Source: a phage | Assembly: GCA_012813795.1 (NCBI GenBank) | Contig: GCA_012813795.1_4087.1 | DNA length: 64,000 nucleotides | Direction: 5' to 3' (one strand) | Shown: one piece after another, positions 20,411 through 55,385 of the stretch | Numbering within the stretch: position 1 is the stretch's first letter | How the letters are laid out: each line of letters starts with the position of its first letter | Made by a program: the position numbers and the translations under genes | Notes under the pieces: generated by a model | The model's input: only the letters and a program-made list of their open reading frames with translations | Told to the model about the DNA's origin: nothing | Database searches by the model: none

Positions 20411-20443
20411 ATTATAGCAAAAAGGGCTGACCGAAGTCAACCC
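20411..20443 (-). promoter_or_regulatory. family-A module (hairpin + TTGACT-N18-TATAAT)
   Basis: revcomp GGGTTGAC-ttcg-GTCAGCCC-tttttgc-TATAAT. Confidence 0.65.
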
Positions 20444-21139: not shown

Positions 21140-21172
21140 ATTATAGCAAAAAGGGCTGACCGAAGTCAACCC
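21140..21172 (-). promoter_or_regulatory. family-A module (hairpin + TTGACT-N18-TATAAT)
   Basis: same element as 20411..20443, upstream of denV. Confidence 0.65.
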
Positions 21173-24247: not shown

Positions 24248-24280
24248 ATTATAGCAAAAAAGGCTGACCGAAGTCAACCT
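24248..24280 (-). promoter_or_regulatory. family-A module (hairpin + TTGACT-N18-TATAAT)
   Basis: revcomp AGGTTGAC-ttcg-GTCAGCCT-tttttgc-TATAAT. Confidence 0.65.
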
Positions 24281-25873: not shown

Positions 25874-25906
25874 AGAATAGCAAAAAGGGTCAACAAAAGT
25901 CAACCC
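25874..25906 (-). promoter_or_regulatory. family-A module variant (hairpin + TTGACT, weak -10 TATTCT)
   Basis: GGGTTGAC-tttt-GTTGACCC then tttttgctattct. Confidence 0.5.
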
Positions 25907-26577: not shown

Positions 26578-27156
26578 TTATAGATCACGGACAATATTCA
26601 TCAAACAAGTCTTAGGTTTGATACATTTGAAGAAGTACACCATCGTCTTATATTGTTTAATTATATCATCCAAATTTGGCGTTAGCAAGCTTTCTTGAAA
26701 ATATTCTTCTTCGCTCAAGTTTGGGAGGTCTTTCACGTCACAATTCAACTCAATAATATTAGAACTTGTGGTATACTCATCGATAGTTTTAAGTTGAACA
26801 ATCTCCCACTCAAATATACCAGCACTCAATGTACCGATAATACGAATACGTTCCGGCTTATCAGATGCATCTCTGCAATAGATACGTATAAACCCAGTAC
26901 CGTATCGTCTGTAATCATCTATCGTAATGTCCAGACCATCGTATACGAAGGATACTGAAATAATATTTTCAGTTGGATGTGCATCTTTCCCTGTACTATT
27001 GTTAGTACTTATATATCTAATATCAATCTTGTTAGATACTATCTTTCTACTCAGGGCAGAAAGTTTATTGTGTGCTTTGATAAAACCTAAGCATATATCA
27101 TTGAACCTTCCACTTTTATTCTTCTTTGATACTTTAAACTTACCTTTACGGTTCAT
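26578..27156 (-). CDS. EExYFQ-motif family protein
   Basis: 192 aa with EEEYFQES; -10 of module A6 only 8 nt from ATG (possibly leaderless). Confidence 0.55.
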   Translation of the reverse strand: MNRKGKFKVSKKNKSGRFNDICLGFIKAHNKLSALSRKIVSNKIDIRYISTNNSTGKDAHPTENIISVSFVYDGLDITIDDYRRYGTGFIRIYCRDASDKPERIRIIGTLSAGIFEWEIVQLKTIDEYTTSSNIIELNCDVKDLPNLSEEEYFQESLLTPNLDDIIKQYKTMVYFFKCIKPKTCLMNIVRDL

Positions 27157-27164
27157 AAGTCACC

Positions 27165-27195
27165 ATTATACAAAAGGGCTGACTTATGTCAACCC
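27165..27195 (-). promoter_or_regulatory. family-A module (hairpin + TTGACA-N17-TATAAT)
   Basis: revcomp GGGTTGAC-ataa-GTCAGCCC-ttttg-TATAAT. Confidence 0.6.
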
Positions 27196-27201
27196 CGTAG
27201 T

Positions 27202-27426
27202 TTAATATCTTTTTACTTCACATGGTACATATGGTTTGTACAAAATGATTATATCATTCACAAGGAAAATCACTGTTCCTCTATCATTGTGTATTGCCAT
27301 CTTAACCGACTTACCCTGATATGTCTCTGTGTAGCCACCGCTAACGTTTGTACACTTCACAAAGTACTTGATTCTGGCTTGTACTATTGTGCTCACAAAC
27401 ATTAATGCCACCAGCATGTATTTCAT
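27202..27426 (-). CDS. small secreted protein (signal peptide)
   Basis: MKYMLVALMFVSTIVQA signal-like N-terminus. Confidence 0.5.
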   Translation of the reverse strand: MKYMLVALMFVSTIVQARIKYFVKCTNVSGGYTETYQGKSVKMAIHNDRGTVIFLVNDIIILYKPYVPCEVKRY

Positions 27427-27447
27427 TTACTCGTGTCCATCAGACTA

Positions 27448-27711
27448 TTAGAATTGAATAGCAATACCTTTAGATGTAATTTCAAACGTACAGTTGTAGC
27501 GAGCCGCCATATCAATATACATATGTTCAGAATACCACGGAACGTTGATATCCGGTTGATTATCATATACCAGGCAGTCATTGTCACCAATGTGCTCGAC
27601 TTTAAATGGGACACCCATTTCAGTTAAAAACAACTCAGCACCTGGTGTGCGACGAAGGAACTCCACATCATCACGCAGACGAAAACCATGATAGTTCAAT
27701 TTCAGTTTCAT
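27448..27711 (-). CDS. hypothetical protein
   Basis: 87 aa. Confidence 0.5.
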   Translation of the reverse strand: MKLKLNYHGFRLRDDVEFLRRTPGAELFLTEMGVPFKVEHIGDNDCLVYDNQPDINVPWYSEHMYIDMAARYNCTFEITSKGIAIQF

Positions 27712-28068
27712 TTAATCCCCTATTGAATAGTTGTTCATTTGTGCAATTATGTTCATTATAACACAAATAACGTACAAGTCGAACTTTATTTTGTTGTGAT
27801 TAATTACACTATTATCGGGTACATACCCAACACACTCCACTGTGTATTCAAGGAATGATAGTTCAGAATCATCTGAATCTATATCTGCCTTAATGAAGTA
27901 CTTTAAATGTGGATGTGTATTAGTGTATGAACTTAAAATCTGTTGGAACTTGTTTCGTAGTTCACGAGTTAACTTTATGTAATCTTCATCGTCACGTTGG
28001 TCGAAATACGGATCTTGTGGTATCTCATAACTCAAGAACTTTGCAAATCGTGTTGATGTTTTATTCAT
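27712..28068 (-). CDS. hypothetical protein
   Basis: start moved to Met12 just after upstream stop. Confidence 0.5.
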   Translation of the reverse strand: MNKTSTRFAKFLSYEIPQDPYFDQRDDEDYIKLTRELRNKFQQILSSYTNTHPHLKYFIKADIDSDDSELSFLEYTVECVGYVPDNSVINHNKIKFDLYVICVIMNIIAQMNNYSIGD

Positions 28069-28501
28069 ATGCCATCTCTTCCTTATTAAATCTTGTAGCA
28101 CGAAATTCTTCTTTAGCTTCCTTTACTGACATAATACGAAGTAGTTTTGCACTACCATAATAGTACTGCACTTGGTTATGTCCAATGTCTACATGGTTAT
28201 CTGGAACTTCATACACAAAAACAGAAAATCCTGAACGATGAAGTTTACCTAAGTCCATTGTAAAGAATCTGAACAGGTCGTTTAAACTTTGGCATCCAAA
28301 TGCCCAGCCACGCTTTATAGAATAAATTCCATCGTCGGTGGGTTCTGGTTGAAATTGTGTAGGTGTGGTCATACACAAACGTTCAAATCCATTTTTAGTA
28401 CTGTATCGCGAAGAGTACCGTGCGAACGGTCCTACTGTTTTTGCAGGATCTAAGTTAGGTTCAATATAACTGAATTTAAGTTCAAAACGATATACATACA
28501 T
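28061..28501 (-). CDS. hypothetical protein
   Basis: 146 aa; downstream of module A7. Confidence 0.6.
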   Translation of the reverse strand: MYVYRFELKFSYIEPNLDPAKTVGPFARYSSRYSTKNGFERLCMTTPTQFQPEPTDDGIYSIKRGWAFGCQSLNDLFRFFTMDLGKLHRSGFSVFVYEVPDNHVDIGHNQVQYYYGSAKLLRIMSVKEAKEEFRATRFNKEEMAYE

Positions 28502-28530
28502 AATTAAAATCCCCAGTAGTAGATGAAATG

Positions 28531-28563
28531 ATTATAACAAAAAAGGCTGACCGAAGTCAACCT
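28531..28563 (-). promoter_or_regulatory. family-A module (hairpin + TTGACT-N18-TATAAT)
   Basis: revcomp AGGTTGAC-ttcg-GTCAGCCT-tttttgt-TATAAT. Confidence 0.65.
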
Positions 28564-28763
28564 TTATTTTGAAGTTCTTGAACTAATTGTCGTACTTCTT
28601 TGATGTTACGACACTGCTTTACAGTGAAGTAATCATACTTACGACCATAGGTTCTTGGGTCATCACCTTCCATATACTGCTGCACATCAAAGATTTGTAA
28701 GTAGGGATGCTGTATAACACGAATGTTATCACATTGATAAATCAACATATGTTTAGTCCTCAT
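28557..28763 (-). CDS. hypothetical protein
   Basis: start moved to Met6 ATG (track start is GTG). Confidence 0.5.
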   Translation of the reverse strand: MRTKHMLIYQCDNIRVIQHPYLQIFDVQQYMEGDDPRTYGRKYDYFTVKQCRNIKEVRQLVQELQNKG

Positions 28764-28887
28764 ATTTACACAAGCCACCGAATGTTGCCTGTTTTGCTGC
28801 CTTACGCATCATCACAAGTTTAACATACTGTTCGCCATTACTTTCTTCATATACATCAACTTGAAGAAATGCAAGCATATTGGGATC

Positions 28888-28920
28888 AGTATAACAAAAA
28901 AGGCTGACGTTAGTCAACCT
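28888..28920 (-). promoter_or_regulatory. family-A module variant (hairpin + TTGACT-N18-TATACT)
   Basis: AGGTTGAC-taac-GTCAGCCT then ttttttgttatactg. Confidence 0.5.
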
Positions 28921-28927
28921 TTTTTAA

Positions 28928-29281
28928 TCAATCATCATATGTACACTCACCTCCAAAATCAGCCTCCTTATCTCCAATACGTTTAAGTACGAGTTTGACT
29001 TCTTGTGTTCCGTCTTCACCCTCTATCATATTCACTTGAAGGTAGGCTCTATAATCAGTGTCACCTGTTTTTGCATATTCAGTGAAACTGATATCACCAA
29101 CAGTATGGTCTTTAACGTATGTATATTCAATGCCATCGATGTAAATGATATCAAGGTCATCTGAATCCCCTTGGAATATGTGTTGTTCAGAATTCTCTTT
29201 ACAAAGCAATCCGGCTAAGGGTGCAGCATAAGAGACACCACACATAATAATACACATAAAAAATAATATAACTTTCATCAT
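28928..29281 (-). CDS. small secreted protein (signal peptide)
   Basis: MMKVILFFMCIIMCGVSYA signal-like N-terminus. Confidence 0.55.
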   Translation of the reverse strand: MMKVILFFMCIIMCGVSYAAPLAGLLCKENSEQHIFQGDSDDLDIIYIDGIEYTYVKDHTVGDISFTEYAKTGDTDYRAYLQVNMIEGEDGTQEVKLVLKRIGDKEADFGGECTYDD

Positions 29282-29652
29282 TTTTTCCTCTGCATATCTC
29301 TGTTCAATACCATTTCACGATACATATTATACAACACATCAATCTTATAAACAATATACCACAAACAACAAATACTTGCCATACCTGCGGTCATAGAAAC
29401 ATTACTATTAGATACAAATCCCAATTGTTCCAAAATGATCATCATAAAATACAATGTATTGGTAATAATAGATGAATTCCATGCTGGTGAATCCACATCA
29501 AAATGCATTGTTATTTTTAAAATGATTCCATCTGATTGTTTTAAAATGTAATACCATATACCATAGATTGACCCCATCATAAAAGTTACAAAACAAATAC
29601 CAAAAATGATTTGTGGAAGTACTAATGAGAACCCAATGATACTATTGAACAT
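29278..29652 (-). CDS. small membrane protein
   Basis: 124 aa hydrophobic; ATGA overlap. Confidence 0.55.
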   Translation of the reverse strand: MFNSIIGFSLVLPQIIFGICFVTFMMGSIYGIWYYILKQSDGIILKITMHFDVDSPAWNSSIITNTLYFMMIILEQLGFVSNSNVSMTAGMASICCLWYIVYKIDVLYNMYREMVLNRDMQRKK

Positions 29653-29666
29653 AGATTTACCTTAAA

Positions 29667-30032
29667 TTATATTTGACAATGTAAATGAAGTTTATCAAGA
29701 TCCAGACTTCTTTTATTGGAATGATCACGGTAAACCACTACATATATATCCCCTGTATTATTTTCAGGATCAACTATCAGTATGACATTAGCAATTATAC
29801 CAGAATCAGTTCTAAATGTCGATACCTTTTTGTTGCCAATTTTACTTTCACTAACAAAACGATAATTTTCACCATCTATTAGTATATCAGTACCATTATA
29901 TGGATCACTGGAAAACGTATGCCACTGTCCATCATTTCCTATGCAATCGAACCACGCAACGTCCTCGTTAGCTTCAACTGGCATAACATTAAGTGCCATT
30001 ATCATGGCAATTATAATTGTAAGCTTTCCCAT
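29667..30032 (-). CDS. small secreted protein (signal peptide)
   Basis: start moved to Met18 (GAGG RBS); MGKLTIIIAMIMALNVMPVEA. Confidence 0.55.
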   Translation of the reverse strand: MGKLTIIIAMIMALNVMPVEANEDVAWFDCIGNDGQWHTFSSDPYNGTDILIDGENYRFVSESKIGNKKVSTFRTDSGIIANVILIVDPENNTGDIYVVVYRDHSNKRSLDLDKLHLHCQI

Positions 30033-30124
30033 ATTAACCTCAAAATAATAAAAAAAATACTTGTGTACATAACTAGTACACAAGTATTTAATACTATTCT
30101 GTATTTTATATGAGTACTTGGTTA

Positions 30125-30457
30125 TTACTTATCAGATTTTGATTTAAACTTCATTTTAAGTAAGAAAATCCAATCAGAAACCAAACCACTAAACAAACAT
30201 TGAATAAACCATACAATAGCTACTAAATTTTCAACAACGGAAATCCATGCAAGTACAGTAGATAGTGGTAATAAAAAGCCCAATAGCCACACAACAGCAT
30301 ACACACATACTAAAACATAAAAGATCCCAACTACTGGACTATCCAGATTGAATAGTTTACGTAGGTCATTTTTAACTTCTTCATCTTTCTGGAATGCTTC
30401 AAAAAGTAATACAAAAAGAAGAACAAAACAAGGGATAGAAATAATAAATGATAACAT
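30125..30457 (-). CDS. small membrane protein
   Basis: 110 aa hydrophobic. Confidence 0.55.
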   Translation of the reverse strand: MLSFIISIPCFVLLFVLLFEAFQKDEEVKNDLRKLFNLDSPVVGIFYVLVCVYAVVWLLGFLLPLSTVLAWISVVENLVAIVWFIQCLFSGLVSDWIFLLKMKFKSKSDK

Positions 30458-30477
30458 TAGTAGTTCCTCATATTAAT

Positions 30478-30738
30478 TTAACGGAGTTGGCTGTCTTTAC
30501 TTCCACGTCTATTATAACGCTCTTGATATACCTTGTCAACCTTTGATTGACACTGAACACATCGTTTTACACCCTTCAGTACTAACCTCCGCTTCTCTGG
30601 TATCTCACAGTCACAGTCGATGCAGTACTCTTCAGACTCACCACTATACAGATTTGAGCGAGCAAAGTCAATAGCATTATCAATAGTTGCTTGTATCGTT
30701 TCTAAATGGTTATCTGGTGAACCAAACCCTACTGCCAT
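30478..30738 (-). CDS. TraR/DksA-type C4 zinc-finger protein
   Basis: CIDCDCEIPEKRRLVLKGVKRCVQCQ gives CxxC-N17-CxxC. Confidence 0.6.
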   Translation of the reverse strand: MAVGFGSPDNHLETIQATIDNAIDFARSNLYSGESEEYCIDCDCEIPEKRRLVLKGVKRCVQCQSKVDKVYQERYNRRGSKDSQLR

Positions 30739-30770
30739 AATATCCCCCTTAGTAGAAGGATATTATAGGT

Positions 30771-31013
30771 CTAACCTTCAAGTTTGTCAAGTACTTCTTT
30801 TTCTTGGAACAACATTAGGAATGAAATATATAGTAGTATATGACTCACAATCATCATCCAATCAGTAGACCAATAAAGAGTCAGACTTACCAATACCCAT
30901 GCAGTATTCAAGAGAAATACTTTTACAGCATCATAAAATTTACCCCATACTAAAGTTAAAATAGTTGGAGAAAAGTTAACTAATAAAATCAGTACAACGT
31001 ATAAAATTAACAT
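30771..31013 (-). CDS. small membrane protein
   Basis: start moved to Met15 overlapping upstream stop by 1 nt. Confidence 0.5.
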   Translation of the reverse strand: MLILYVVLILLVNFSPTILTLVWGKFYDAVKVFLLNTAWVLVSLTLYWSTDWMMIVSHILLYISFLMLFQEKEVLDKLEG

Positions 31014-31678
31014 TATAGTGTTTCCTTTTTCTTTACTGGGATTAGTTCGTAACAATAAACAACATCAATACCTTCTTCATCATACAAGTACTCATGCTTT
31101 TTCTTATGAGTACCAATGTATGTGCCGTGCTTATGCCAACGCCACCCACCATGTTCAGGTTGATCTTCCTTGTACACAGGATGAAATCCAATAACAACTT
31201 CCATTTCAGATGTAAGAACATTCTTATGTTTCTTAAGGATCTGCTGTAAGTTGTCAGCTACACCGTAAGGGGAATTACAATGTGTTGACAATGGGAATGG
31301 TCTACCACTTGGCAATAATTCACTCTCATACGAAGCACTACACATAGCAAGAAAATCATCAGAATTATAGAACTCACCATTGTTCGTATTAATATATTGC
31401 AGACTTTTAATAACTTCATAGTCTGTCATAAAGTTAATGACTTTATCTATACCATAACCCGCTAATATACCAGGTGTAGGTGTCTGCACAGCACAAAATA
31501 AACGATTACTATCTTCTTCCGTTAGATTAGCCTTTTCCCAGAATGGATGCTTTCTGTCAAAACGACTTTCGTATAAAGTTCCTTTGATACCATCGCTATC
31601 GTATGGAACTTTCTCAAGATACATACCACGACTTTGTACCATATCATCACTAATAATGTAACTTAAATTGGCGAGCAT
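31013..31678 (-). CDS. hypothetical protein
   Basis: 221 aa. Confidence 0.6.
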   Translation of the reverse strand: MLANLSYIISDDMVQSRGMYLEKVPYDSDGIKGTLYESRFDRKHPFWEKANLTEEDSNRLFCAVQTPTPGILAGYGIDKVINFMTDYEVIKSLQYINTNNGEFYNSDDFLAMCSASYESELLPSGRPFPLSTHCNSPYGVADNLQQILKKHKNVLTSEMEVVIGFHPVYKEDQPEHGGWRWHKHGTYIGTHKKKHEYLYDEEGIDVVYCYELIPVKKKETL

Positions 31679-31742
31679 ACGTATTCCTCAGTTAATTCAT
31701 AATACAGATATAATACTCGCTTTTTACATGCGTGTCAAGTTT

Positions 31743-31955
31743 TTAAAGCGTAGGCCACACTTTAAATTGTAGTTGCTGATACTGTACATCTACGGTTTCT
31801 TTCTTATCAAAGGATTCAGATACTTTAATCTCAGCTTCGTACTCACCTTCTGCATGTACGACAAATTTAAATTCTTCAACATGTGAGAAACGCATACCAC
31901 GATCACCATCAAAACGGAAAACCTGCACTGTACCTTCTACTAGATATAAATTCAT
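31743..31955 (-). CDS. hypothetical protein
   Basis: 70 aa. Confidence 0.5.
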   Translation of the reverse strand: MNLYLVEGTVQVFRFDGDRGMRFSHVEEFKFVVHAEGEYEAEIKVSESFDKKETVDVQYQQLQFKVWPTL

Positions 31956-32176
31956 TCTTCATCATCCTCTTCTAAAAGTTTAATAGATTTAATTGTTTCA
32001 ATATAACGTTGTGTCTTTGTTGTATTGAACTTTGTCAGGTCATTTAACAGTAAAGAGAGTACATGGGCTACATCGCGACCCCTAACATACATCGTGCGTT
32101 CACTCATGACCTTTTCATAGCCACGAATGTTATCAAATTCAGATATACCCACGTATTCAATCACGTATCTGTTCAT
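31952..32176 (-). CDS. hypothetical protein
   Basis: 74 aa; ATGA overlap. Confidence 0.5.
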   Translation of the reverse strand: MNRYVIEYVGISEFDNIRGYEKVMSERTMYVRGRDVAHVLSLLLNDLTKFNTTKTQRYIETIKSIKLLEEDDEE

Positions 32177-32679
32177 TTATCATCCACTTGTATGTCAAAG
32201 GCTTTACAGAAATTATCTACTCTTTTACCAGGAACTGACATGTATATGTTATATGGCAATTCACATACCTTATTGGAAATTGCCAGTACTTTAGGAATAT
32301 CAGGATCGTGTAGTTCAAAGTTGTATAGCAATGAACTTTGGAATACACCCTCTTCAGTACTGTAATCTACAATGAACAGTTCGTGTGATGATGGTATATC
32401 ATATTCTACAATGTTTTTGTGATTCGGTCTATTATGAAAGTGAATTTCATATGTATCACGCACCGTTGGTTTAGATAGATAAACCGCAGATTCAAAAAGA
32501 TCACCAATACCGAATGTAACATCACACAGCTTATCACCGTTTGTATCATACAAATAGAACATTGTACTATCAAATACTTTATCAGATACAATATTCATAG
32601 TATTGTACGTACCATTGTAGCTCTCATTGAAGTTGATAAACTCTATGAACTTTACAAACTTATCAGTACTAAGATTCAC
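32173..32679 (-). CDS. hypothetical protein
   Basis: 168 aa. Confidence 0.6.
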   Translation of the reverse strand: MNLSTDKFVKFIEFINFNESYNGTYNTMNIVSDKVFDSTMFYLYDTNGDKLCDVTFGIGDLFESAVYLSKPTVRDTYEIHFHNRPNHKNIVEYDIPSSHELFIVDYSTEEGVFQSSLLYNFELHDPDIPKVLAISNKVCELPYNIYMSVPGKRVDNFCKAFDIQVDDK

Positions 32680-32879
32680 TACTTCACCTCAATGACCTTA
32701 AGGTTAACAAAGTCACCTTTGACCTTCATACATTTGTATTCGGTACGAGTTTCTTCACCAGCATCACGAGGCCAGTGTGTCGCAGAATAACACTGCTCAG
32801 GTGTTTTATATACACCGTCACCGAATGTATGTGTGATTTCACCATTTGTTAGTACTACGGCTAGATATAAAGTAAACAT
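32679..32879 (-). CDS. hypothetical protein
   Basis: 66 aa. Confidence 0.45.
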   Translation of the reverse strand: MFTLYLAVVLTNGEITHTFGDGVYKTPEQCYSATHWPRDAGEETRTEYKCMKVKGDFVNLKVIEVK

Positions 32880-32888
32880 GTGTATTCC

Positions 32889-33035
32889 TCAAAAAAACTT
32901 ATTAATGATAACTGCAAACAGTCCCAGTACTGCAATAATTACAGATACCCACATTACCGCATTCACTGTACCAGTTAGTTCTTTATCAAACTCCCTGCAC
33001 TTCTTGCGGTACTCTTCCCATTCTTTGTTGTTCAC
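32889..33035 (-). CDS. small C-terminally membrane-anchored protein (GTG start)
   Basis: GTG 6 nt after GGGAG and just after upstream TAA; track ORF 32889..33203 overlaps 33037..33246 by 167 nt. Confidence 0.4.
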   Translation of the reverse strand: MNNKEWEEYRKKCREFDKELTGTVNAVMWVSVIIAVLGLFAVIINKFF

Positions 33036-33036
33036 C

Positions 33037-33246
33037 TTATGCTCCCAATAAATCAGTTGCTTTCTTGAGAACAACGTCAATTGTTTCCAGTACTGCACCT
33101 TTGTGTTCAATTGATACAATATTATTATAAGTATCAAGGTCCAAGTATTCCATGTATTCAGTTTTGAATACACGAACATCAGTACTAGTGATTTTAAGAT
33201 CACAACCTTTATTCCAGATAACCTGCATCATTTCATTGGTAGTCAT
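33037..33246 (-). CDS. hypothetical protein
   Basis: 69 aa hydrophilic. Confidence 0.5.
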   Translation of the reverse strand: MTTNEMMQVIWNKGCDLKITSTDVRVFKTEYMEYLDLDTYNNIVSIEHKGAVLETIDVVLKKATDLLGA

Positions 33247-33521
33247 TATTCAACCTTATCATAAACAAGTTTGTGAGTGCTTATTACTTTGTTGAGTTGC
33301 CCAGGACATTCATATACGTATAATCTCTCCTGACGTTTTTCCCAACCACCACAAATACGTCCTGCTTGTGTACATATTTCATATTCGTTAATAAAAGACT
33401 TACCTGTGAATGTACAATCATAACGAACTAAGTCTTTTGCACTAAACCTGCCGTAATCATTACATGCTGTAAGAAACATTGTACAGAATACAACAAACAC
33501 AGTCAATAGTTTTTTAATCAT
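33246..33521 (-). CDS. putative lipoprotein
   Basis: signal peptide ending LTAC; Cys-rich mature part. Confidence 0.6.
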   Translation of the reverse strand: MIKKLLTVFVVFCTMFLTACNDYGRFSAKDLVRYDCTFTGKSFINEYEICTQAGRICGGWEKRQERLYVYECPGQLNKVISTHKLVYDKVE

Positions 33522-33886
33522 TTAAGATCTCCCCAACGGCAACCCTTCATATGATTCAAATTCACCTCAACTATTTCATGTGTGTCAGTGCACAATATCG
33601 ACAGTTTTTTTGTAAAATCACCTGGTGAACTTTCATATTTCACACAATAGCCCTCGATACGGAGAACCGAGTGGGTCCATGATTCCCACTCAATCCAAAT
33701 TTCATTTGGGTGATATACAATATCTTCGTTTAACTTGTGATATTCATCCAGTGGAAGCTGTGTAGTGATATCAATATATTTTACATTTCGACTGAGTTTT
33801 TCAAGCTGATATCGTGTATTAGCTAGATATTCTTCGTCATTCAAACGTTTTAAGATATTTGCCGAACGAGTAGTATCAAGACTCAT
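33518..33886 (-). CDS. hypothetical protein
   Basis: 122 aa. Confidence 0.55.
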   Translation of the reverse strand: MSLDTTRSANILKRLNDEEYLANTRYQLEKLSRNVKYIDITTQLPLDEYHKLNEDIVYHPNEIWIEWESWTHSVLRIEGYCVKYESSPGDFTKKLSILCTDTHEIVEVNLNHMKGCRWGDLK

Positions 33887-33888
33887 TG

Positions 33889-34134
33889 TTATTCTCCATG
33901 AACCACAGATGTATCCACGCGAACTTTACCACTCATATAAGACGTAGTAGTGTTTGCATTAGGACAGTACACAGTGTACAAAGATGCACCAGCACCGTCT
34001 TGTTGCATACGATAAATCTTACACCCTGCTTCTTTGAGTTCAGTTGGTAAAACAAACTCACTAGTTCGTTCTTTGGTTGAAGCATCACATGCAGTGAGTA
34101 GGAAAGCAATTAGTACTGCTACAATATATTTCAT
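33889..34134 (-). CDS. putative lipoprotein
   Basis: MKYIVAVLIAFLLTAC lipobox. Confidence 0.6.
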   Translation of the reverse strand: MKYIVAVLIAFLLTACDASTKERTSEFVLPTELKEAGCKIYRMQQDGAGASLYTVYCPNANTTTSYMSGKVRVDTSVVHGE

Positions 34135-34442
34135 TAACGAACCTCCACTTCTTGAGAAAGAGCATGAGTCAGTGCATTTGAATTCGAACCATTCATTTCA
34201 CGCTGACATACAAACATAATGGCATCTTGTACTGAACCTGCGATTTCATACTCACGACCTTCTGGATCAGTTACCAGATGTTCAACGATACAACCACCAC
34301 GCAGTACAGAAGCACCAGTACTTACACTAATCCTGTAACCTAAAAAATCAAACTGCATACATGCGTCAGTAGGTTTCATCCAATAACCGCTGTTTTGATT
34401 CAAATCGATGATTACAAAACCTTGAGTGTTAGTTTGAAACAT
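34134..34442 (-). CDS. hypothetical protein
   Basis: 102 aa; long 5' leader from promoter 34536..34564. Confidence 0.55.
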   Translation of the reverse strand: MFQTNTQGFVIIDLNQNSGYWMKPTDACMQFDFLGYRISVSTGASVLRGGCIVEHLVTDPEGREYEIAGSVQDAIMFVCQREMNGSNSNALTHALSQEVEVR

Positions 34443-34535
34443 AGTTAATTCCTCATTTAATTTAAAAGGGTGGAAACGCAGTGACGAGTACGATTATGCT
34501 GTCTTTCCTTTCACTGCATTCCCTTTGATATAAAC

Positions 34536-34564
34536 ATTATACTGCTATTATTCAGTACTGTCAA
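34536..34564 (-). promoter_or_regulatory. family-B promoter TTGACA(GTACTG)-N17-TATAAT
   Basis: revcomp of tgtcaa 34559-34564 and attata 34536-34541. Confidence 0.6.
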
Positions 34565-34839
34565 TCGATATAAGTACCTTTTTTAACATCACAGACTTCT
34601 TCCATCCAATGTGGATTTTCGTTTTTATCAGTGAAGATTTGTTCTGCTTCTTCTTTTGTTTCAGCTAGGACGATACGGTCCCCATCATCCAAAACACGGA
34701 TACGATAAACTTTCAGTTCTTGTTTCTGCTCAAGGATATTACACAGTTCACGTGCTTTTTCTTCATCGCACTCCCCTTCATTAGCATAAAACCAGATTGC
34801 TTTTTTAATAAGGTCACGTTCTTCTTTGGTAAAAGACAT
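34561..34839 (-). CDS. hypothetical protein
   Basis: 92 aa acidic. Confidence 0.55.
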   Translation of the reverse strand: MSFTKEERDLIKKAIWFYANEGECDEEKARELCNILEQKQELKVYRIRVLDDGDRIVLAETKEEAEQIFTDKNENPHWMEEVCDVKKGTYID

Positions 34840-36708: not shown

Positions 36709-37332
36709 TGAATGTTCCTTAATAGTTAGTCATCCATCTCTTCGAGATGTCTGTTCGCTTCTAATACTACGTATTCTACGCGAATGATTAATAACTGTCA
36801 AGGACTTTTAATATTGACGGGATTTGAGGAAGGGATTTTTCTTCCCCCCGCTGGGAGGGGAATTTGACGCTGATGGTATCAGAGCTATTGCATTGAAGAT
36901 TACTCTTAATGAGTACGAAAGCGGGTCATCCTGTTTCTCTCTACTTCAGTTTCATATGACGGTCTACACTTTTAAACATAGTGTATCTTCATTAAGTATC
37001 TATGCAATCAAATACTTAATGTGAGTACTCAAATTTTGGACGCAACTTTCCTGTACAAAATTTGATAACTCTCCCTTAGATAATTCGTAAGGTGTTATCC
37101 TTATATGTCTATCTAGGAACCACCAGCCATCCTAACGTGGTTCTTTATAGTGCCGCATTGCCGTGAGGGGTTCATAATATGCCCACATCTGACGGGTTTC
37201 TTCTGCACTTCGCACTGCTGGACTGCTCAACTGCCCTCTACATTTTCGAGTGGATCAGGTTCATGTCATCCATGCCAACAGAATTGTACAATATCATTGT
37301 ATCATGAACATCCATTTTGTCCCATAAAAAAA

Positions 37333-37357
37333 GGGCTGACCTAAGTCAACCCTTTTT
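37333..37357 (-). terminator. family-A hairpin without -10 (terminator after sigma-factor gene)
   Basis: revcomp GGGTTGAC-ttag-GTCAGCCC-ttttttt; no TATAAT follows. Confidence 0.6.
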
Positions 37358-41740: not shown

Positions 41741-42205
41741 CTATAGCCTGTCAAGAACATCTGTAGTTTTATTTTGTAGTGCTTTTAGGATCAAACGAAT
41801 ATAGTACGGTGGTAAAACGAATCTTTCCATTGAGTTATATGAAAGATACATATCACTAAGTTTTAGTTCAGAACTGCTGTTACCTGGTTCTATAAAATGG
41901 ATCACCCCAGGATTTTTCATCACAACTTTGTATCCATTAACATTGTTGATAGCATTTCGACAAACCAGTTCAATGTTTGCTAAATCACTAATACTATAGT
42001 TTAGATTATATGATGAATGATATGAAGACACAACTAAAAATTCTTTGGGTAACAAATATGTCCAAAATAATGATTTAAAAAAAGCAAGATTTCCCTCAAA
42101 CTTAGATATAGATTTACTATATGCAATATGTTCAACATCATCAATGATAGAAAAAATCAATTGATATACAATAACAAATAGACTAATACATATCAGTGCT
42201 GTCAT
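41741..42205 (-). CDS. membrane-anchored hypothetical protein
   Basis: 154 aa, N-terminal hydrophobic segment. Confidence 0.55.
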   Translation of the reverse strand: MTALICISLFVIVYQLIFSIIDDVEHIAYSKSISKFEGNLAFFKSLFWTYLLPKEFLVVSSYHSSYNLNYSISDLANIELVCRNAINNVNGYKVVMKNPGVIHFIEPGNSSSELKLSDMYLSYNSMERFVLPPYYIRLILKALQNKTTDVLDRL

Positions 42206-50696: not shown

Positions 50697-51465
<769 letters not shown>

Positions 51466-51468
51466 ACA

Positions 51469-51601
<133 letters not shown>

Positions 51602-51602
51602 A

Positions 51603-51702
<100 letters not shown>

Positions 51703-51746
51703 ATAGGCACATACGGGTCTGCTTTTAAGCTACTGATTCGGGAATC

Positions 51747-51792
<46 letters not shown>

Positions 51793-51799
51793 CGTTCTT

Positions 51800-52018
<219 letters not shown>

Positions 52019-52027
52019 TAATACCCT

Positions 52028-52429
52028 TTAGTAGTTTAAGTCAGCGGCGTTGAACACACCGAGTGAAGTCTTACCACGTAGTTTAGGGGAAATGACATAT
52101 TTTGTCAATGTCTTTTTACCGTACCAGTACTCGAAATCTTTTTCTTCTACATACGGATTAGGGAAATCCCATTTGCGTTCTTTATGAATTTGCTTGGCCT
52201 GGACTTGAAGCTTTTCAACTTCATCTGGTGGTACAGTATCTACATTATTAAACTGCATGTACATACCTTTTAACCCATCAAGAATTAATTTTTCAGTTTC
52301 TTTAACTAATGTAATCTTTTCGATTCCAGTACTGATATTCATGTAGTCATCTACATAACCATTCCAGATAACAATCTCTGGATTACCTTCGATTCCCTGA
52401 AGCATCTTGATCAAGTCATTCTTTTTCAT
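52028..52429 (-). CDS. hypothetical protein
   Basis: 133 aa. Confidence 0.6.
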   Translation of the reverse strand: MKKNDLIKMLQGIEGNPEIVIWNGYVDDYMNISTGIEKITLVKETEKLILDGLKGMYMQFNNVDTVPPDEVEKLQVQAKQIHKERKWDFPNPYVEEKDFEYWYGKKTLTKYVISPKLRGKTSLGVFNAADLNY

Positions 52430-52437
52430 TTGAATTC

Positions 52438-54078
<1,641 letters not shown>

Positions 54079-54263
54079 ATCACCAACTTTAATTAAAAAA
54101 ATGGATGGTGACGCTTTTAAACGCCGCTGTTAATTCAGCTTTATAACCACCCGTTTTAACTTGCCTTTCGGCTACCTTGACGTGGGGCGTACAGGCTACT
54201 AAAAGCAACTTCTGTAAACATATTTCCACGCCTTACCATTTTCATTATATCAGTACTTTTATC

Positions 54264-54503
54264 TTATACTTTAGTTAGTACTAAGTTGTTGATGTTGTTT
54301 ACATCTGGACAGACGTCGGTGCGATGCATCAATTCAATATCAAGAATGTATTGTTTGATTTTTGAAATGTCAATGTCTTTTTCTTGCATTACGATGATAC
54401 ATGACTCATTTAAAGTATATGTATCATAAGACCATCCCATTCCATCACCACGTGGAACTTTTTGTGATACATTATAACTATAACTCACAAAATACTTACC
54501 CAT
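54264..54503 (-). CDS. hypothetical protein
   Basis: start moved to Met11 ATG downstream of promoter 54536..54563 (track start is TTG next to the -10). Confidence 0.55.
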   Translation of the reverse strand: MGKYFVSYSYNVSQKVPRGDGMGWSYDTYTLNESCIIVMQEKDIDISKIKQYILDIELMHRTDVCPDVNNINNLVLTKV

Positions 54504-54531
54504 TTCAATATACCTTCTGTTGTTAAGATAC

Positions 54532-55385
<854 letters not shown>

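What the first reader, a model, noticed from the sequence alone, without database searches (positions are those of the whole stretch)
27202..34134. Cluster of small secreted proteins and lipoproteins
Within about 7 kb there are at least six small proteins with signal peptides or lipoboxes (27202, 28928, 29667, 33246 LTAC, 33889 LTAC, plus membrane proteins 29278, 30125, 30771), in addition to lipoproteins at 14147 and 21186 and a secreted protein at 42202. Lipobox and signal features suggest a Gram-negative host envelope. Such proteins are candidates for receptor masking or superinfection exclusion.
Basis: partly seen in the sequence, partly recalled or inferred. Interest (0 to 1): 0.45.

Follow-up and report, generated by a model that had tools for sequence, protein, structure and literature searches.

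The report
Early exported proteins of a jumbo coliphage
A giant E. coli virus carries a stretch of probably early-expressed genes for several small proteins sent to the bacterial envelope; they are real but of unknown function, they are not relatives of the known receptor-blocking proteins that public records name them after, and one pair is predicted to fold like bacterial lysozyme inhibitors.

Summary
The window is an Asteriusvirus jumbo coliphage, 98% identical to phage A4 over this region. The features are at the stated coordinates: three Sec-type signal-peptide proteins (A 27202, B 28928, D 29667), two lipobox lipoproteins (G 33246, H 33889) and four small membrane proteins. Export is supported by even cysteine counts in all mature domains and by signal/TM features retained in orthologues only 27-62% identical. 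Clustering is modest (Fisher p=0.003; interval-free permutation p=0.10).

The genes lie in a putative early region: 12 perfect sigma-70 consensus promoters, all on the coding strand (0.2 expected), plus PeSL-like terminator/promoter hairpins. One hairpin marks a mosaic breakpoint that left a stub of an older B allele.

Public labels for H and G ("Cor", "lytic conversion lipoprotein") fail. Genuine Cor is phrog_1119 and H is phrog_902, and the similarity vanishes once signal peptides are removed. There is no sequence match to Llp.

The parts
27202..27426 (-). A: 74-aa secreted protein. Predicted signal peptide 1-17 (VQA|R); mature part about 57 aa with 2 Cys.
   Evidence: Rule-based signal-peptide call. 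phrog_31284, unknown function. Found in 32 Asteriusvirus-type records only. The fEgEco12 orthologue is 45% identical but keeps the signal peptide and Cys25/Cys69.
28753..28917 (-). Stub (3' remnant) of an older allele of gene B; probably a pseudogene.
   Evidence: 100% identical over 41-45 aa to the C-terminus of fEgEco12 g541, while intact B is 57% identical to g541. It hits the C-terminal half of phrog_27330.
28897..28919 (-). PeSL-like composite terminator/promoter hairpin lying exactly at the junction between B and the stub.
   Evidence: Sequence GGTTGACTAACGTCAGCCTTTTT followed by TTATACT. Nine minus-strand copies in the window against 0 expected.
28928..29281 (-). B: 117-aa periplasmic protein. 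Signal peptide 1-19; mature part is an 8-stranded beta-barrel with invariant Cys27/Cys113.
29278..29652 (-). C: 124-aa membrane protein. Its stop overlaps the start of B.
   Evidence: Hydrophobic segments. phrog_31707. The orthologue is 27% identical and still polytopic.
29667..30032 (-). D: 121-aa periplasmic paralogue of B. Signal peptide 1-21 (VEA|N); Cys30/Cys119.
   Evidence: Pairwise BLASTP with B gives E=1e-4. The joint alignment has invariant Cys and core positions. phrog_25709 plus a weak phrog_27330 hit.
30055..30089 (-). Terminator-like hairpin (14-bp stem plus T-run) between E and D.
30125..30457 (-). E: 110-aa membrane protein with 3 TM segments.
   Evidence: phrog_31401. No detectable similarity to C.
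30771..31013 (-). F: 80-aa membrane protein with 2 TM segments.
   Evidence: No Pfam or PHROG family.
32889..33035 (-). I: 48-aa protein with a C-terminal TM segment (tail-anchored type).
   Evidence: Start taken from the A4 annotation. TM at 26-44. phrog_38271.
33246..33521 (-). G: 91-aa lipoprotein. Lipobox FLTA|C20, +2 Asn; 4 Cys in the mature part.
   Evidence: phrog_31263. 40 records, all Asteriusvirus-type jumbo phages. Unrelated to the H family (hhalign probability 3%) and to Cor.
33889..34134 (-). H: 81-aa lipoprotein. Lipobox LLTA|C16, +2 Asp. The mature part is about 65 aa and beta-rich, with invariant Cys38/Cys57, Pro30, Tyr41 and Gly-Lys 69-70.
   Evidence: phrog_902, E=2.8e-14. 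579 phage records. At least 150 protein clusters. Alignments A1 and A2. +2/+3 statistics. AF2 pLDDT 67.
34536..34564 (-). Perfect sigma-70 consensus promoter. Inferred to drive the operon 34442->31743, which contains H, G and I.
   Evidence: TTGACA-N17-TATAAT. No terminator-like site was found on the minus strand between 34536 and 31738. Genes overlap by 1-4 nt.
30511..30539 (-). Perfect sigma-70 consensus promoter upstream of E.
30762..30790 (-). Perfect sigma-70 consensus promoter upstream of the DksA/TraR zinc-finger gene.
27165..27196 (-). PeSL-like element just downstream of A: a hairpin terminator whose 5' arm carries TTGACA, followed by a T-run and TATAAT.

Best explanation
The interval is not one system. 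It is a stretch of the early, host-RNA-polymerase-transcribed, hyperplastic part of an Asteriusvirus jumbo coliphage genome. It has accumulated several unrelated families of small envelope-directed accessory proteins.

Shown:
- Five proteins have cleavable Sec or lipoprotein signals, and four are small membrane proteins.
- Their export features and cysteine pairs are conserved despite strong sequence divergence.
- The block is punctuated by perfect sigma-70 consensus promoters and PeSL-like terminator/promoter hairpins.
- It has undergone a mosaic replacement with a breakpoint at one such hairpin.

Inferred:
- The proteins are made soon after infection and remodel or protect the envelope of the infected cell, that is, superinfection exclusion in the broad sense.
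- The most concrete mechanistic lead concerns B and its paralogue D. They are soluble periplasmic 8-stranded beta-barrels closed by a first-strand/last-strand disulfide, like the MliC/PliC/ACP/PhiA inhibitors. They probably bind and inhibit a peptidoglycan hydrolase.
- The most plausible target is the tail-associated lysozyme of a superinfecting related phage. That would make B and D functional analogues of T4 Spackle with a different fold.
- H is a stand-alone lipoprotein of a family spread through virulent phages of Gammaproteobacteria. Its Asp at +2 predicts retention on the periplasmic face of the inner membrane, where it could interfere with a step after adsorption.
- G is a clade-specific lipoprotein, probably sorted to the outer membrane.
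- None of them is a Cor or Llp homologue.
For: - Identity of the phage and synteny.
- Signal, lipobox and TM calls.
- Even Cys counts in 8 of 8 exported proteins.
- Export features retained at 27-62% identity.
- 12 perfect TTGACA-N16/17-TATAAT sites, all on the minus strand against 0.2 expected, six of them in 27.1-35.7 kb.
- In the related phage CBB, RpoD-like promoters mark the presumed early host-takeover region, which also contains a sigma factor (PMC5259590). A4 annotates a sigma-70-family gene at the position of window 34561-34839.
- PeSL-like hairpins. One sits at the B/stub junction. The PeSL concept comes from PMC2839356 and PMC4122927.
- B model pLDDT 79, pTM 0.67.
- The invariant Cys pair sits on the first and last strands. 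The beta1-beta8 disulfide is preserved in ACP, MliC and PliC (PMC5507604).
- Asteriusvirus virions contain a 96-kDa lysozyme-family protein encoded beside the baseplate wedge gene (PMC7247149).
- T4 Spackle is an early periplasmic disulfide-bonded inhibitor of tail lysozyme gp5 (PMC7677548).
- H family: invariant lipobox, two Cys in 89 of 95 members, Asp at +2 in 42 of 95.
Against: - No function has been tested.
- The clustering is only borderline significant when the interval is not pre-chosen (p=0.10).
- Foldseek does not rank PliC/MliC among its top 50 hits for B. Its best hit is the lipocalin-like barrel Tp0751 (E=7e-3). Only the generic small beta-barrel fold is therefore robust, and such barrels have many functions.
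- The MliC/PliC active-site motifs SxSGAxY and YxxxTKG are absent from B and D, and the Pfam scan reported no family near threshold for B or D, so the MliC family was not matched.
- Early expression is inferred from promoter consensus only.
- The +2 Asp rule is an E. coli rule, and only 44% of H-family members have Asp at +2.
- The H model is of low confidence (pLDDT 67) and has no fold match.
Confidence: 0.45

Rival explanations
1. Receptor masking of the Cor/Llp type, which is the first reader's reading and the one implied by public annotations. G and/or H would be outer-membrane lipoproteins that bind the periplasmic side of the phage's outer-membrane receptor. This would block adsorption of other phages and stop progeny being lost on cell debris.
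For: - Both are small lipoproteins of Cor/Llp size (about 60-70 mature residues) with disulfide-capable Cys pairs.
- They sit in a promoter-rich, presumably early operon.
- fEgEco12 and vB_Ec-M-J label the homologues 'lytic conversion lipoprotein' and 'Cor'.
- G has Asn at +2, which is compatible with outer-membrane sorting.
Against: - Genuine T1 Cor is phrog_1119 (E=3e-30). H does not hit that family, and its pairwise similarity to Cor is confined to residues 2-24, the signal peptide.
- The mature-domain-only profile comparison gives probability 0.2%.
- There is no sequence match to any PDB chain, including Llp, for H, G or the H-family profile at E<=10.
- H has Asp at +2.
- H-family genes in Felixounavirus, Vequintavirinae, Demerecviridae, Obolenskvirus and Eneladusvirus lie among small genes, in several cases beside replication genes, and not next to receptor-binding protein genes.
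- The fEgEco12 paper gives no basis for its label.
Confidence: 0.12
2. Lysis control. B and D would hold the phage's own exported endolysin, or host autolysins, in check until the proper lysis time. Alternatively, the lipoproteins would be spanin components.
For: - Rak2-like phages are reported to have an endolysin with an N-terminal transmembrane domain, as in signal-arrest-release (SAR) endolysins, which accumulate in the envelope before lysis (PMC5259590).
Against: - The genes lie in a block of consensus sigma-70 promoters rather than among late genes.
- There is no i-spanin-like partner (N-terminal TM plus a long periplasmic coiled coil) next to G or H.
- H and G are not proline-rich.
- H has an inner-membrane sorting residue, whereas an o-spanin must sit in the outer membrane.
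- By analogy, T4 Spackle does not physiologically target the late endolysin (PMC7677548).
Confidence: 0.1
3. No common theme. Unrelated ORFan envelope proteins with miscellaneous or no important roles happen to lie together, simply because hyperplastic early regions collect small accessory genes and about a fifth of any proteome is membrane-bound or secreted.
For: - The interval-free permutation gives p=0.10.
- The families are unrelated to each other, apart from the B/D pair.
- The variable block also contains equally divergent cytoplasmic genes.
- Other envelope proteins are scattered across the window, and there is a second membrane-protein cluster at 14.7-17.4 kb.
Against: - Export features and Cys pairs are conserved under strong divergence.
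- The B/D duplication has been maintained in all Asteriusvirus relatives sampled.
- The H family persists in 579 phage genomes of many lineages.
These points argue that at least these genes are individually selected.
Confidence: 0.25

Closest known systems
T4 Spackle (gp61.3), a periplasmic inhibitor of the tail lysozyme gp5
   Same: A small early-gene product of a large virulent myovirus, exported by a cleavable signal peptide and stabilised by a disulfide. It acts in the periplasm against peptidoglycan hydrolysis by superinfecting phages (PMC7677548). B and D share the size, export signal, Cys pair and promoter-rich early-type setting, and Asteriusvirus virions carry a lysozyme-family protein.
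   Different: Spackle is an alpha-helical bundle, while B is predicted to be all-beta. There is no sequence similarity. Inhibition by B or D is untested.
MliC/PliC family, with the structurally related ACP (Neisseria) and PhiA (Brucella) peptidoglycan-hydrolase inhibitors
   Different: The Pfam scan of B and D reported no family near threshold, so the MliC family was not matched. The motifs SxSGAxY and YxxxTKG are absent. Foldseek ranks a lipocalin-like barrel first instead. These are bacterial proteins that defend against animal lysozymes or regulate a type IV secretion autolysin, and none was found reported from a phage.
Cor (T1, phi80, N15, HK022) and Llp (T5), superinfection-exclusion lipoproteins
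   Same: Small phage lipoproteins with a lipobox and a Cys pair. They are expressed during lytic growth to modify the infected cell's envelope.
   Different: There is no sequence or profile similarity beyond the signal peptide. Cor and Llp act at the inner leaflet of the outer membrane on FhuA, and their genes sit next to tail or receptor-binding protein genes. H has Asp at +2, and H-family genes sit in early/middle gene blocks.
PeSLs (promoter-early stem-loops) of T4-type phages
   Same: A composite intrinsic-terminator hairpin plus a near-consensus sigma-70 promoter, repeated between small genes of hyperplastic regions and found at indel or replacement boundaries (PMC2839356, PMC4122927).
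   Different: Here the -35 hexamer lies inside the 5' arm of the hairpin (GGTTGAC-loop-GTCAGCC), and the host genome is a Rak2/121Q-type jumbo phage. The PeSL paper read here (PMC4122927) mentions neither jumbo phages nor 121Q.
T4 Imm, a small inner-membrane exclusion protein
   Same: C, E, F and I are small membrane proteins encoded among early-type genes, as imm is.
   Different: Pfam reported no family near threshold for C, E, F or I. The resemblance is only one of gene class.

Membership tests
Cor superinfection exclusion protein (phrog_1119) | Sequence match of the mature domain to Cor | tested here: not met
   T1 Cor hits phrog_1119 at 3e-30. H hits only phrog_902 and phrog_6360, and G only phrog_31263. 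BLASTP similarity between H and Cor is limited to residues 2-24. Mature-only hhalign gives probability 0.2%.
Cor superinfection exclusion protein (phrog_1119) | Lipoprotein signal peptide with a lipobox | tested here: met
   LLTA|C in H and FLTA|C in G. This feature is generic to all lipoproteins and explains the spurious annotation.
Cor / Llp | Gene located next to tail or receptor-binding protein genes | tested here: not met
   T1 cor lies directly after the tail genes. H and G lie in an operon of small hypothetical genes. H homologues in six other phage groups lie among small hypothetical genes, in several cases next to polymerase, ligase or helicase genes.
T5 Llp | Sequence similarity to Llp (whose structure has been solved) | tested here: not met
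   phmmer of H and G and hmmsearch of the 95-sequence H-family profile against all PDB chains at E<=10 return only signal-peptide-type matches and no Llp.
T5 Llp | Fold similarity to Llp | tested here: inconclusive
   Foldseek of the H model against the PDB gives a best E of 2.1 and no Llp, but the model has pLDDT 67.
Cor / Llp | Sorting to the outer membrane, where the receptor FhuA is bound | not testable with these tools
   H has Asp at +2 (C-D-A-S), the classical E. coli Lol-avoidance residue (established knowledge). 42 of 95 family members have Asp at +2. G has Asn at +2. Localisation needs cell fractionation.
MliC/PliC lysozyme inhibitors (Pfam MliC family) | 8-stranded antiparallel beta-barrel | tested here: met
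MliC/PliC lysozyme inhibitors (Pfam MliC family) | Disulfide between the first and last strands | tested here: met
   Invariant Cys27 and Cys113 lie in predicted strands 25-29 and 109-115. The feature is described in PMC5507604. Bond geometry was not measured.
MliC/PliC lysozyme inhibitors (Pfam MliC family) | Conserved motifs SxSGAxY and YxxxTKG, and a match to the family HMM | tested here: not met
   SxSGAxY is absent from all 17 family members, and YxxxTKG is present in only one, P0135. Pfam reported no family near threshold for B or D at E<=1, so the MliC family was not matched.
MliC/PliC lysozyme inhibitors (Pfam MliC family) | Binds and inhibits a lysozyme | not testable with these tools
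   This needs biochemistry. ACP shows that the fold can inhibit lysozyme without the motifs (PMC5507604).
Spanins (o-spanin lipoprotein) | Adjacent or embedded i-spanin partner, and a proline-rich mature part | tested here: not met
   The neighbours of G and H have no N-terminal TM segment. H and G have 2 and 1 Pro in their mature parts. The setting is promoter-rich and early-type.
phrog_902 lipoprotein family (function unknown) | Profile match plus the conserved lipobox, Cys38/Cys57, Pro30 and Tyr41 | tested here: met
   E=2.8e-14. Alignments A1 and A2. 579 phage records.
PeSL composite promoter-terminator elements | Stem-loop plus T-run fused to a near-consensus sigma-70 promoter, repeated in a hyperplastic region, and found at a replacement boundary | tested here: met
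   Nine minus-strand copies against 0 expected. The copies at 27.2, 28.5 and 28.9 kb overlap promoter-like sites. The copy at 28897-28919 lies at the B/stub junction. The other boundary, near 32.68 kb, has no copy.

The most novel reading that the evidence does not exclude
B and D would be the first phage-encoded members of the MliC/PliC-fold inhibitor class. They would be early periplasmic proteins that neutralise the tail-associated lysozyme of superinfecting jumbo phages, an independent, all-beta reinvention of T4 Spackle. The maintained duplication and rapid divergence would reflect an arms race with variant tail lysozymes. In parallel, H would define a pan-lineage, inner-membrane-anchored exclusion lipoprotein of virulent phages, present in 579 genomes and currently unannotated or mis-annotated as Cor or Llp.
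Probability: 0.15. Interest if true: 0.65.

Novelty: new variant of a known kind. Interest (0 to 1): 0.4.

Why it matters
Superinfection exclusion and envelope remodelling by strictly lytic phages rest on a handful of characterised proteins: T4 Imm and Sp, T5 Llp, and T1 Cor. Jumbo phages are candidates for phage therapy, and most of their early genes are unannotated.

This analysis does three practical things:
- It removes two misleading public labels ('Cor', 'lytic conversion lipoprotein'), which rest on signal-peptide similarity.
- It singles out a lipoprotein family found in hundreds of virulent phage genomes that nobody has studied.
- It gives one concrete, testable mechanistic hypothesis: a PliC-fold periplasmic inhibitor aimed at a phage tail lysozyme.

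It also extends PeSL-type regulatory cassettes, with a caught-in-the-act allele replacement, to Rak2/121Q-type jumbo phages.

Tried and rejected
- Pfam scans of all nine cluster proteins gave nothing above or near threshold. NCBIfam scans of seven of them (A, B, C, D, E, G, H), plus the three outlying proteins at 14147, 21186 and 42202, gave nothing near threshold for the cluster proteins either.
- The precomputed Pfam tag PF16225 on all H homologues could not be reproduced: 0 of 95 members match it in the current Pfam copy. I disregard it.
- The hhalign hit of the H-family profile to T1 Cor (79% probability) is rejected as a signal-peptide artefact. It covers Cor residues 1-45, aligns the invariant Cys38 to Tyr, and drops to 0.2% with mature domains only.
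- G is not a remote member of the H family. Only a 12-residue LYVxxCP motif aligns, at 3% probability.
- The idea that C and E are paralogues, so that E-D / C-B would be a duplicated two-gene module, is rejected (BLASTP E=0.9). The small membrane proteins of the window are not paralogous in general.
- The idea that the envelope genes specifically are hypervariable is rejected. The whole block at 28.9-32.7 kb, cytoplasmic genes included, is divergent.
- No conserved gene neighbour accompanies H across phage groups.
- The fold search for H gave no significant match.
- The afdb50 fold library was unavailable.
- The fEgEco12 paper has no text on the lipoprotein annotation.
- Literature searches found no report of phage MliC/PliC-like exclusion factors or of the H family.
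- The first hairpin pattern had the wrong loop length. It was corrected.

Full report
**What the window is**

Megablast of 27,000-34,500 finds Escherichia phage A4 (Asteriusvirus, 355 kb) at 98.1% identity over the full length. About 37 other Asteriusvirus-type jumbo phages match at 86-91% over only 35% of the query. From about 14.1 kb to the end of the window, essentially all genes are on the minus strand. In A4 every gene of the interval is 'hypothetical protein' except a C4 zinc-finger protein. Two other records carry functional labels. fEgEco12 calls the homologues of both 'LTAC' lipoproteins 'lytic conversion lipoprotein'. vB_Ec-M-J calls the homologue of 33889-34134 'Cor superinfection exclusion protein'.

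**Checking the observation**

A rule-based scan of about 125 plausible genes used a PROSITE-type lipobox rule, a simple n/h/c-region Sec rule and Kyte-Doolittle TM segments. Inside the interval it recovers:
- A 27202-27426, signal peptide ending VQA|R
- B 28928-29281, ending SYA|A
- D 29667-30032, ending VEA|N; the start is at 30032, as annotated in A4
- G 33246-33521, lipobox FLTA|C
- H 33889-34134, lipobox LLTA|C
- membrane proteins C 29278-29652, E 30125-30457 and F 30771-31013

Outside the interval it recovers:
- 14147, lipobox IMTG|C; a DUF1190/YgiB homologue (Pfam E=5e-31; NCBIfam E=9e-45)
- 21186, lipobox ILSG|C
- 42202, signal peptide ending VYA|D

My Sec rule over-calls some membrane anchors (29278, 41741, 46043), so I counted only the robust set.

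Enrichment: 5 of 21 genes inside the interval against 3 of 104 outside gives Fisher p=0.003. A permutation scan over any run of 21 genes gives p=0.10, so the clustering is suggestive rather than compelling.

Three independent lines support real export:
- All eight exported candidates have an even number of cysteines in the mature part, against 53% even in the non-envelope background (p about 0.006).
- The fEgEco12 orthologues of A, B, C, D, E and F are only 27-62% identical, yet they keep the signal peptide, the cysteine positions and the TM segments.
- All 95 aligned relatives of H keep a canonical lipobox.

**Transcriptional setting**

The window contains 12 perfect TTGACA-N16/17-TATAAT sites against 0.2 expected. 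All are on the coding strand, and six lie between 27,165 and 35,627. One, at 34564-34536, precedes a tightly packed operon with 1-4 nt gene overlaps that contains H, G and I, and no terminator-like site follows it on that strand before 31.7 kb. Others precede E and the DksA/TraR zinc-finger gene.

In the related jumbo phage CBB, RpoD-like promoters are likewise concentrated in a block of short ORFs that includes a phage sigma factor, and the authors interpret that block as early host-takeover genes (PMC5259590). A4 annotates a sigma-70-family protein at the position of window 34561-34839. Early transcription by host RNA polymerase is therefore a well-founded inference, but it has not been shown.

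**A repeated regulatory element and a mosaic event**

Two terminator-like hairpins overlapped promoter-like sites. The generalised pattern GGTTGACW-N3-GTCARCC-Y-TTTT occurs nine times on the minus strand against 0 expected, always between genes. The 5' arm carries a -35-like TTGAC(A/T), the T-run acts as spacer, and a TATAAT-like box follows. This matches the PeSL (promoter-early stem-loop) concept: composite promoter-terminator cassettes that mediate modular shuffling in hyperplastic regions of T4-type phages (PMC2839356, PMC4122927).

Gene-by-gene comparison shows a contiguous block at about 28.9-32.7 kb that is syntenic with fEgEco12 and vB_Ec-M-J but only 27-62% identical in protein. The block includes cytoplasmic genes as well as B, C, D, E and F. 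The flanks are 83-100% identical.

The small ORF 28753-28917 is the 3' stub of the old B allele. It is 100% identical to the C-terminus of fEgEco12 g541, whereas the intact B next to it is 57% identical to g541. A PeSL-like hairpin (28897-28919) lies exactly between the stop codon of B and the stub. So the hypervariability belongs to the region, not to the envelope genes as such.

**Lipoprotein H**

H hits phrog_902 (E=2.8e-14), a family with no assigned function. tblastn finds it in 579 phage records, and every listed row outside Asteriusvirus is annotated 'hypothetical'. The groups include:
- Felixounavirus
- Vequintavirinae
- Eneladusvirus (Serratia phage BF)
- T5-like Vibrio phages
- Obolenskvirus (Acinetobacter)

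A profile search returns at least 150 clusters. The family keeps the lipid Cys and Cys38 invariant, and Pro30, Tyr41, Val55, Cys57-Pro58 and Lys70 nearly invariant. Of 95 aligned members, 89 have exactly two further Cys and 42 have Asp at +2. Asp at +2 is the classical E. coli Lol-avoidance signal (established knowledge), so H (C-D-A-S) is predicted to stay on the periplasmic face of the inner membrane.

In six unrelated phage groups the gene lies among small genes, in several cases next to polymerase, ligase or helicase genes. It has no conserved neighbour and is not next to receptor-binding protein genes.

**Testing the Cor and Llp labels**

- Genuine T1 Cor falls in phrog_1119, 'Cor superinfection exclusion protein', at 3e-30. 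It touches phrog_902 only through residues 1-36.
- BLASTP similarity between H and Cor is confined to residues 2-24.
- A full-length profile comparison gives 79% probability but covers only Cor residues 1-45 and aligns the invariant Cys38 to Tyr. With mature domains only, the probability is 0.2%.
- H, G and the 95-sequence H profile find no PDB chain, Llp included, at E<=10 beyond signal-peptide matches.
- The AF2 model of H (pLDDT 67) has no significant Foldseek match, so the fold test is inconclusive.
- The precomputed PF16225 tag is not reproducible.
- The fEgEco12 paper does not discuss its label.

I conclude that both public labels are signal-peptide artefacts.

**Lipoprotein G and protein A**

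G (phrog_31263) occurs in 40 records and A (phrog_31284) in 32, all Asteriusvirus-type jumbo phages. G is unrelated to H and to Cor. Nothing more can be said about their mechanism.

**Secreted paralogues B and D**

B and D are 22% identical (E=1e-4). They align with invariant Cys27, Asp39, Tyr53, Gly62, Val83, Val98 and Cys113 across 17 sequences. The family is very narrow: 17 clusters in the 5.8-billion-protein collection and 12 representatives among 1.84 billion.

All five fall within the top 14, among other small barrels such as Cap15, Tp0751 and a T6SS immunity protein.

Foldseek does not reproduce PliC. Its best hit is Tp0751 (E=7e-3, TM 0.49), followed by avidins and lipocalin-like barrels. 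The robust statement is therefore 'small periplasmic 8-stranded barrel'.

The family-invariant cysteines lie on the first and last predicted strands. A beta1-beta8 disulfide is exactly what is preserved across ACP, MliC and PliC (PMC5507604). The MliC/PliC motifs SxSGAxY and YxxxTKG are absent, as they are in ACP, which nevertheless inhibits lysozyme.

A plausible target exists. Asteriusvirus phAPEC6 virions contain a 96-kDa lysozyme-family protein encoded beside the baseplate wedge gene (PMC7247149). The precedent is T4 Spackle, an early, periplasmic, disulfide-bonded inhibitor of tail lysozyme gp5 that has a different, helical fold (PMC7677548). No phage MliC/PliC-like exclusion factor turned up in the literature searches.

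**Interpretation**

The interval is best read as part of an early, PeSL-punctuated hyperplastic region that has collected several unrelated envelope-directed accessory proteins. It is not a single system. A role in protecting or remodelling the infected cell's envelope is plausible, including superinfection exclusion.

For B and D there is a specific, testable mechanism: inhibition of a peptidoglycan hydrolase. Receptor masking of the Cor/Llp kind has no support for H and only generic plausibility for G. Spanin and lysis-control readings are disfavoured by the setting and by the lack of partner genes.

**Verdict**

The genes are already present, unannotated or mis-annotated, in public genomes. 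Interest is moderate, resting on the PliC-fold lead, the widespread uncharacterised H family and the PeSL-mediated allele replacement.

Noticed in passing
window minus strand at 18206-18228, 20420-20442, 21149-21171, 24257-24279, 25883-25905, 27172-27194, 28540-28562, 28897-28919, 37329-37351: A repeated intergenic hairpin, GGTTGAC(W)-N3-GTCAGCC(Y)TTTT, often with a TTCG loop. The -35-like TTGAC sits in its 5' arm and a TATAAT-like box follows. It is a PeSL-like composite terminator/promoter. There are nine coding-strand copies against 0 expected.
   Followed up: partly
window 28880-32680, with the stub ORF at 28753-28917: A mosaic block replacement relative to fEgEco12 and vB_Ec-M-J. The block is syntenic but only 27-62% identical in protein, while the flanks are 83-100% identical. 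The left breakpoint lies inside gene B and left a stub 100% identical to the old allele. The right boundary, near 32.68 kb, has no hairpin.
   Followed up: yes
window 23301, 27165, 30511, 30762, 34536, 34885, 35599, 40328, 43377, 44043, 51497, 57754 (start coordinates): Twelve perfect TTGACA-N16/17-TATAAT sigma-70 consensus promoters, all on the minus strand (0.2 expected). They mark 14-64 kb as a probable early region read by host RNA polymerase.
   Followed up: partly
window 246-12304 (+ strand): A tandem array of about 11 paralogous genes, each 290-450 aa, sharing the N-terminus MLPFVRMLEYGN. The one scanned (2417-3559) has RCC1-repeat / beta-propeller Pfam hits.
   Followed up: partly
window 14698-17397 (- strand): A second envelope cluster of seven consecutive small proteins (73-145 aa) with 1-4 TM segments each, directly downstream of the YgiB-like lipoprotein gene in the direction of transcription. 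They are not detectably paralogous by BLASTP.
   Followed up: partly
window 14147-14698 (- strand): A phage-encoded homologue of the E. coli lipoprotein YgiB (DUF1190; Pfam E=5e-31, NCBIfam PRK11653 E=9e-45), with lipobox IMTG|C and 4 Cys in the mature part. phrog_3739.
   Followed up: partly
window 30478-30738 and 27712-28068 (- strand): A DksA/TraR C4 zinc-finger gene (Pfam E=1.5e-7) and a 118-aa ORF are present in the window and in A4 but have no counterpart in the syntenic loci of fEgEco12 and vB_Ec-M-J. They are lineage-specific insertions in the hyperplastic block.
   Followed up: no
window 33518-33886 and 33889-34134 (- strand): H (80% identical) and the 122-aa gene between the two lipoproteins (65%) diverge markedly more from fEgEco12 than their immediate neighbours do: G 92%, 33037-33246 99%, 34134-34442 99%. 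This suggests faster evolution or a second small exchange.
   Followed up: no
window 51131-55260 (- strand): Five tRNA genes: Thr-TGT, Asn-GTT, Met-CAT, Ser-ACT and Ser-TGA. The ORF at 52867-53016 in the mechanical ORF list overlaps the tRNA-Met and tRNA-Ser genes and is probably not a real gene.
   Followed up: partly
protein clusters P0001-P0120 (homologues of window 33889-34134): Every homologue carries a precomputed Pfam tag, PF16225.11, in the large protein database. None of the 95 members scanned matches that family in the current Pfam-A copy at E<=10. The tag is stale or very weak and should not be used.
   Followed up: yes
L003 1-181 (vB_Ec-M-J EcMJ_535) and L002/L003 252-476: vB_Ec-M-J annotates a 79-aa gene just upstream of the orthologue of A as 'immunity to superinfection'. 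I did not test that label or look for a counterpart in the window.
   Followed up: no
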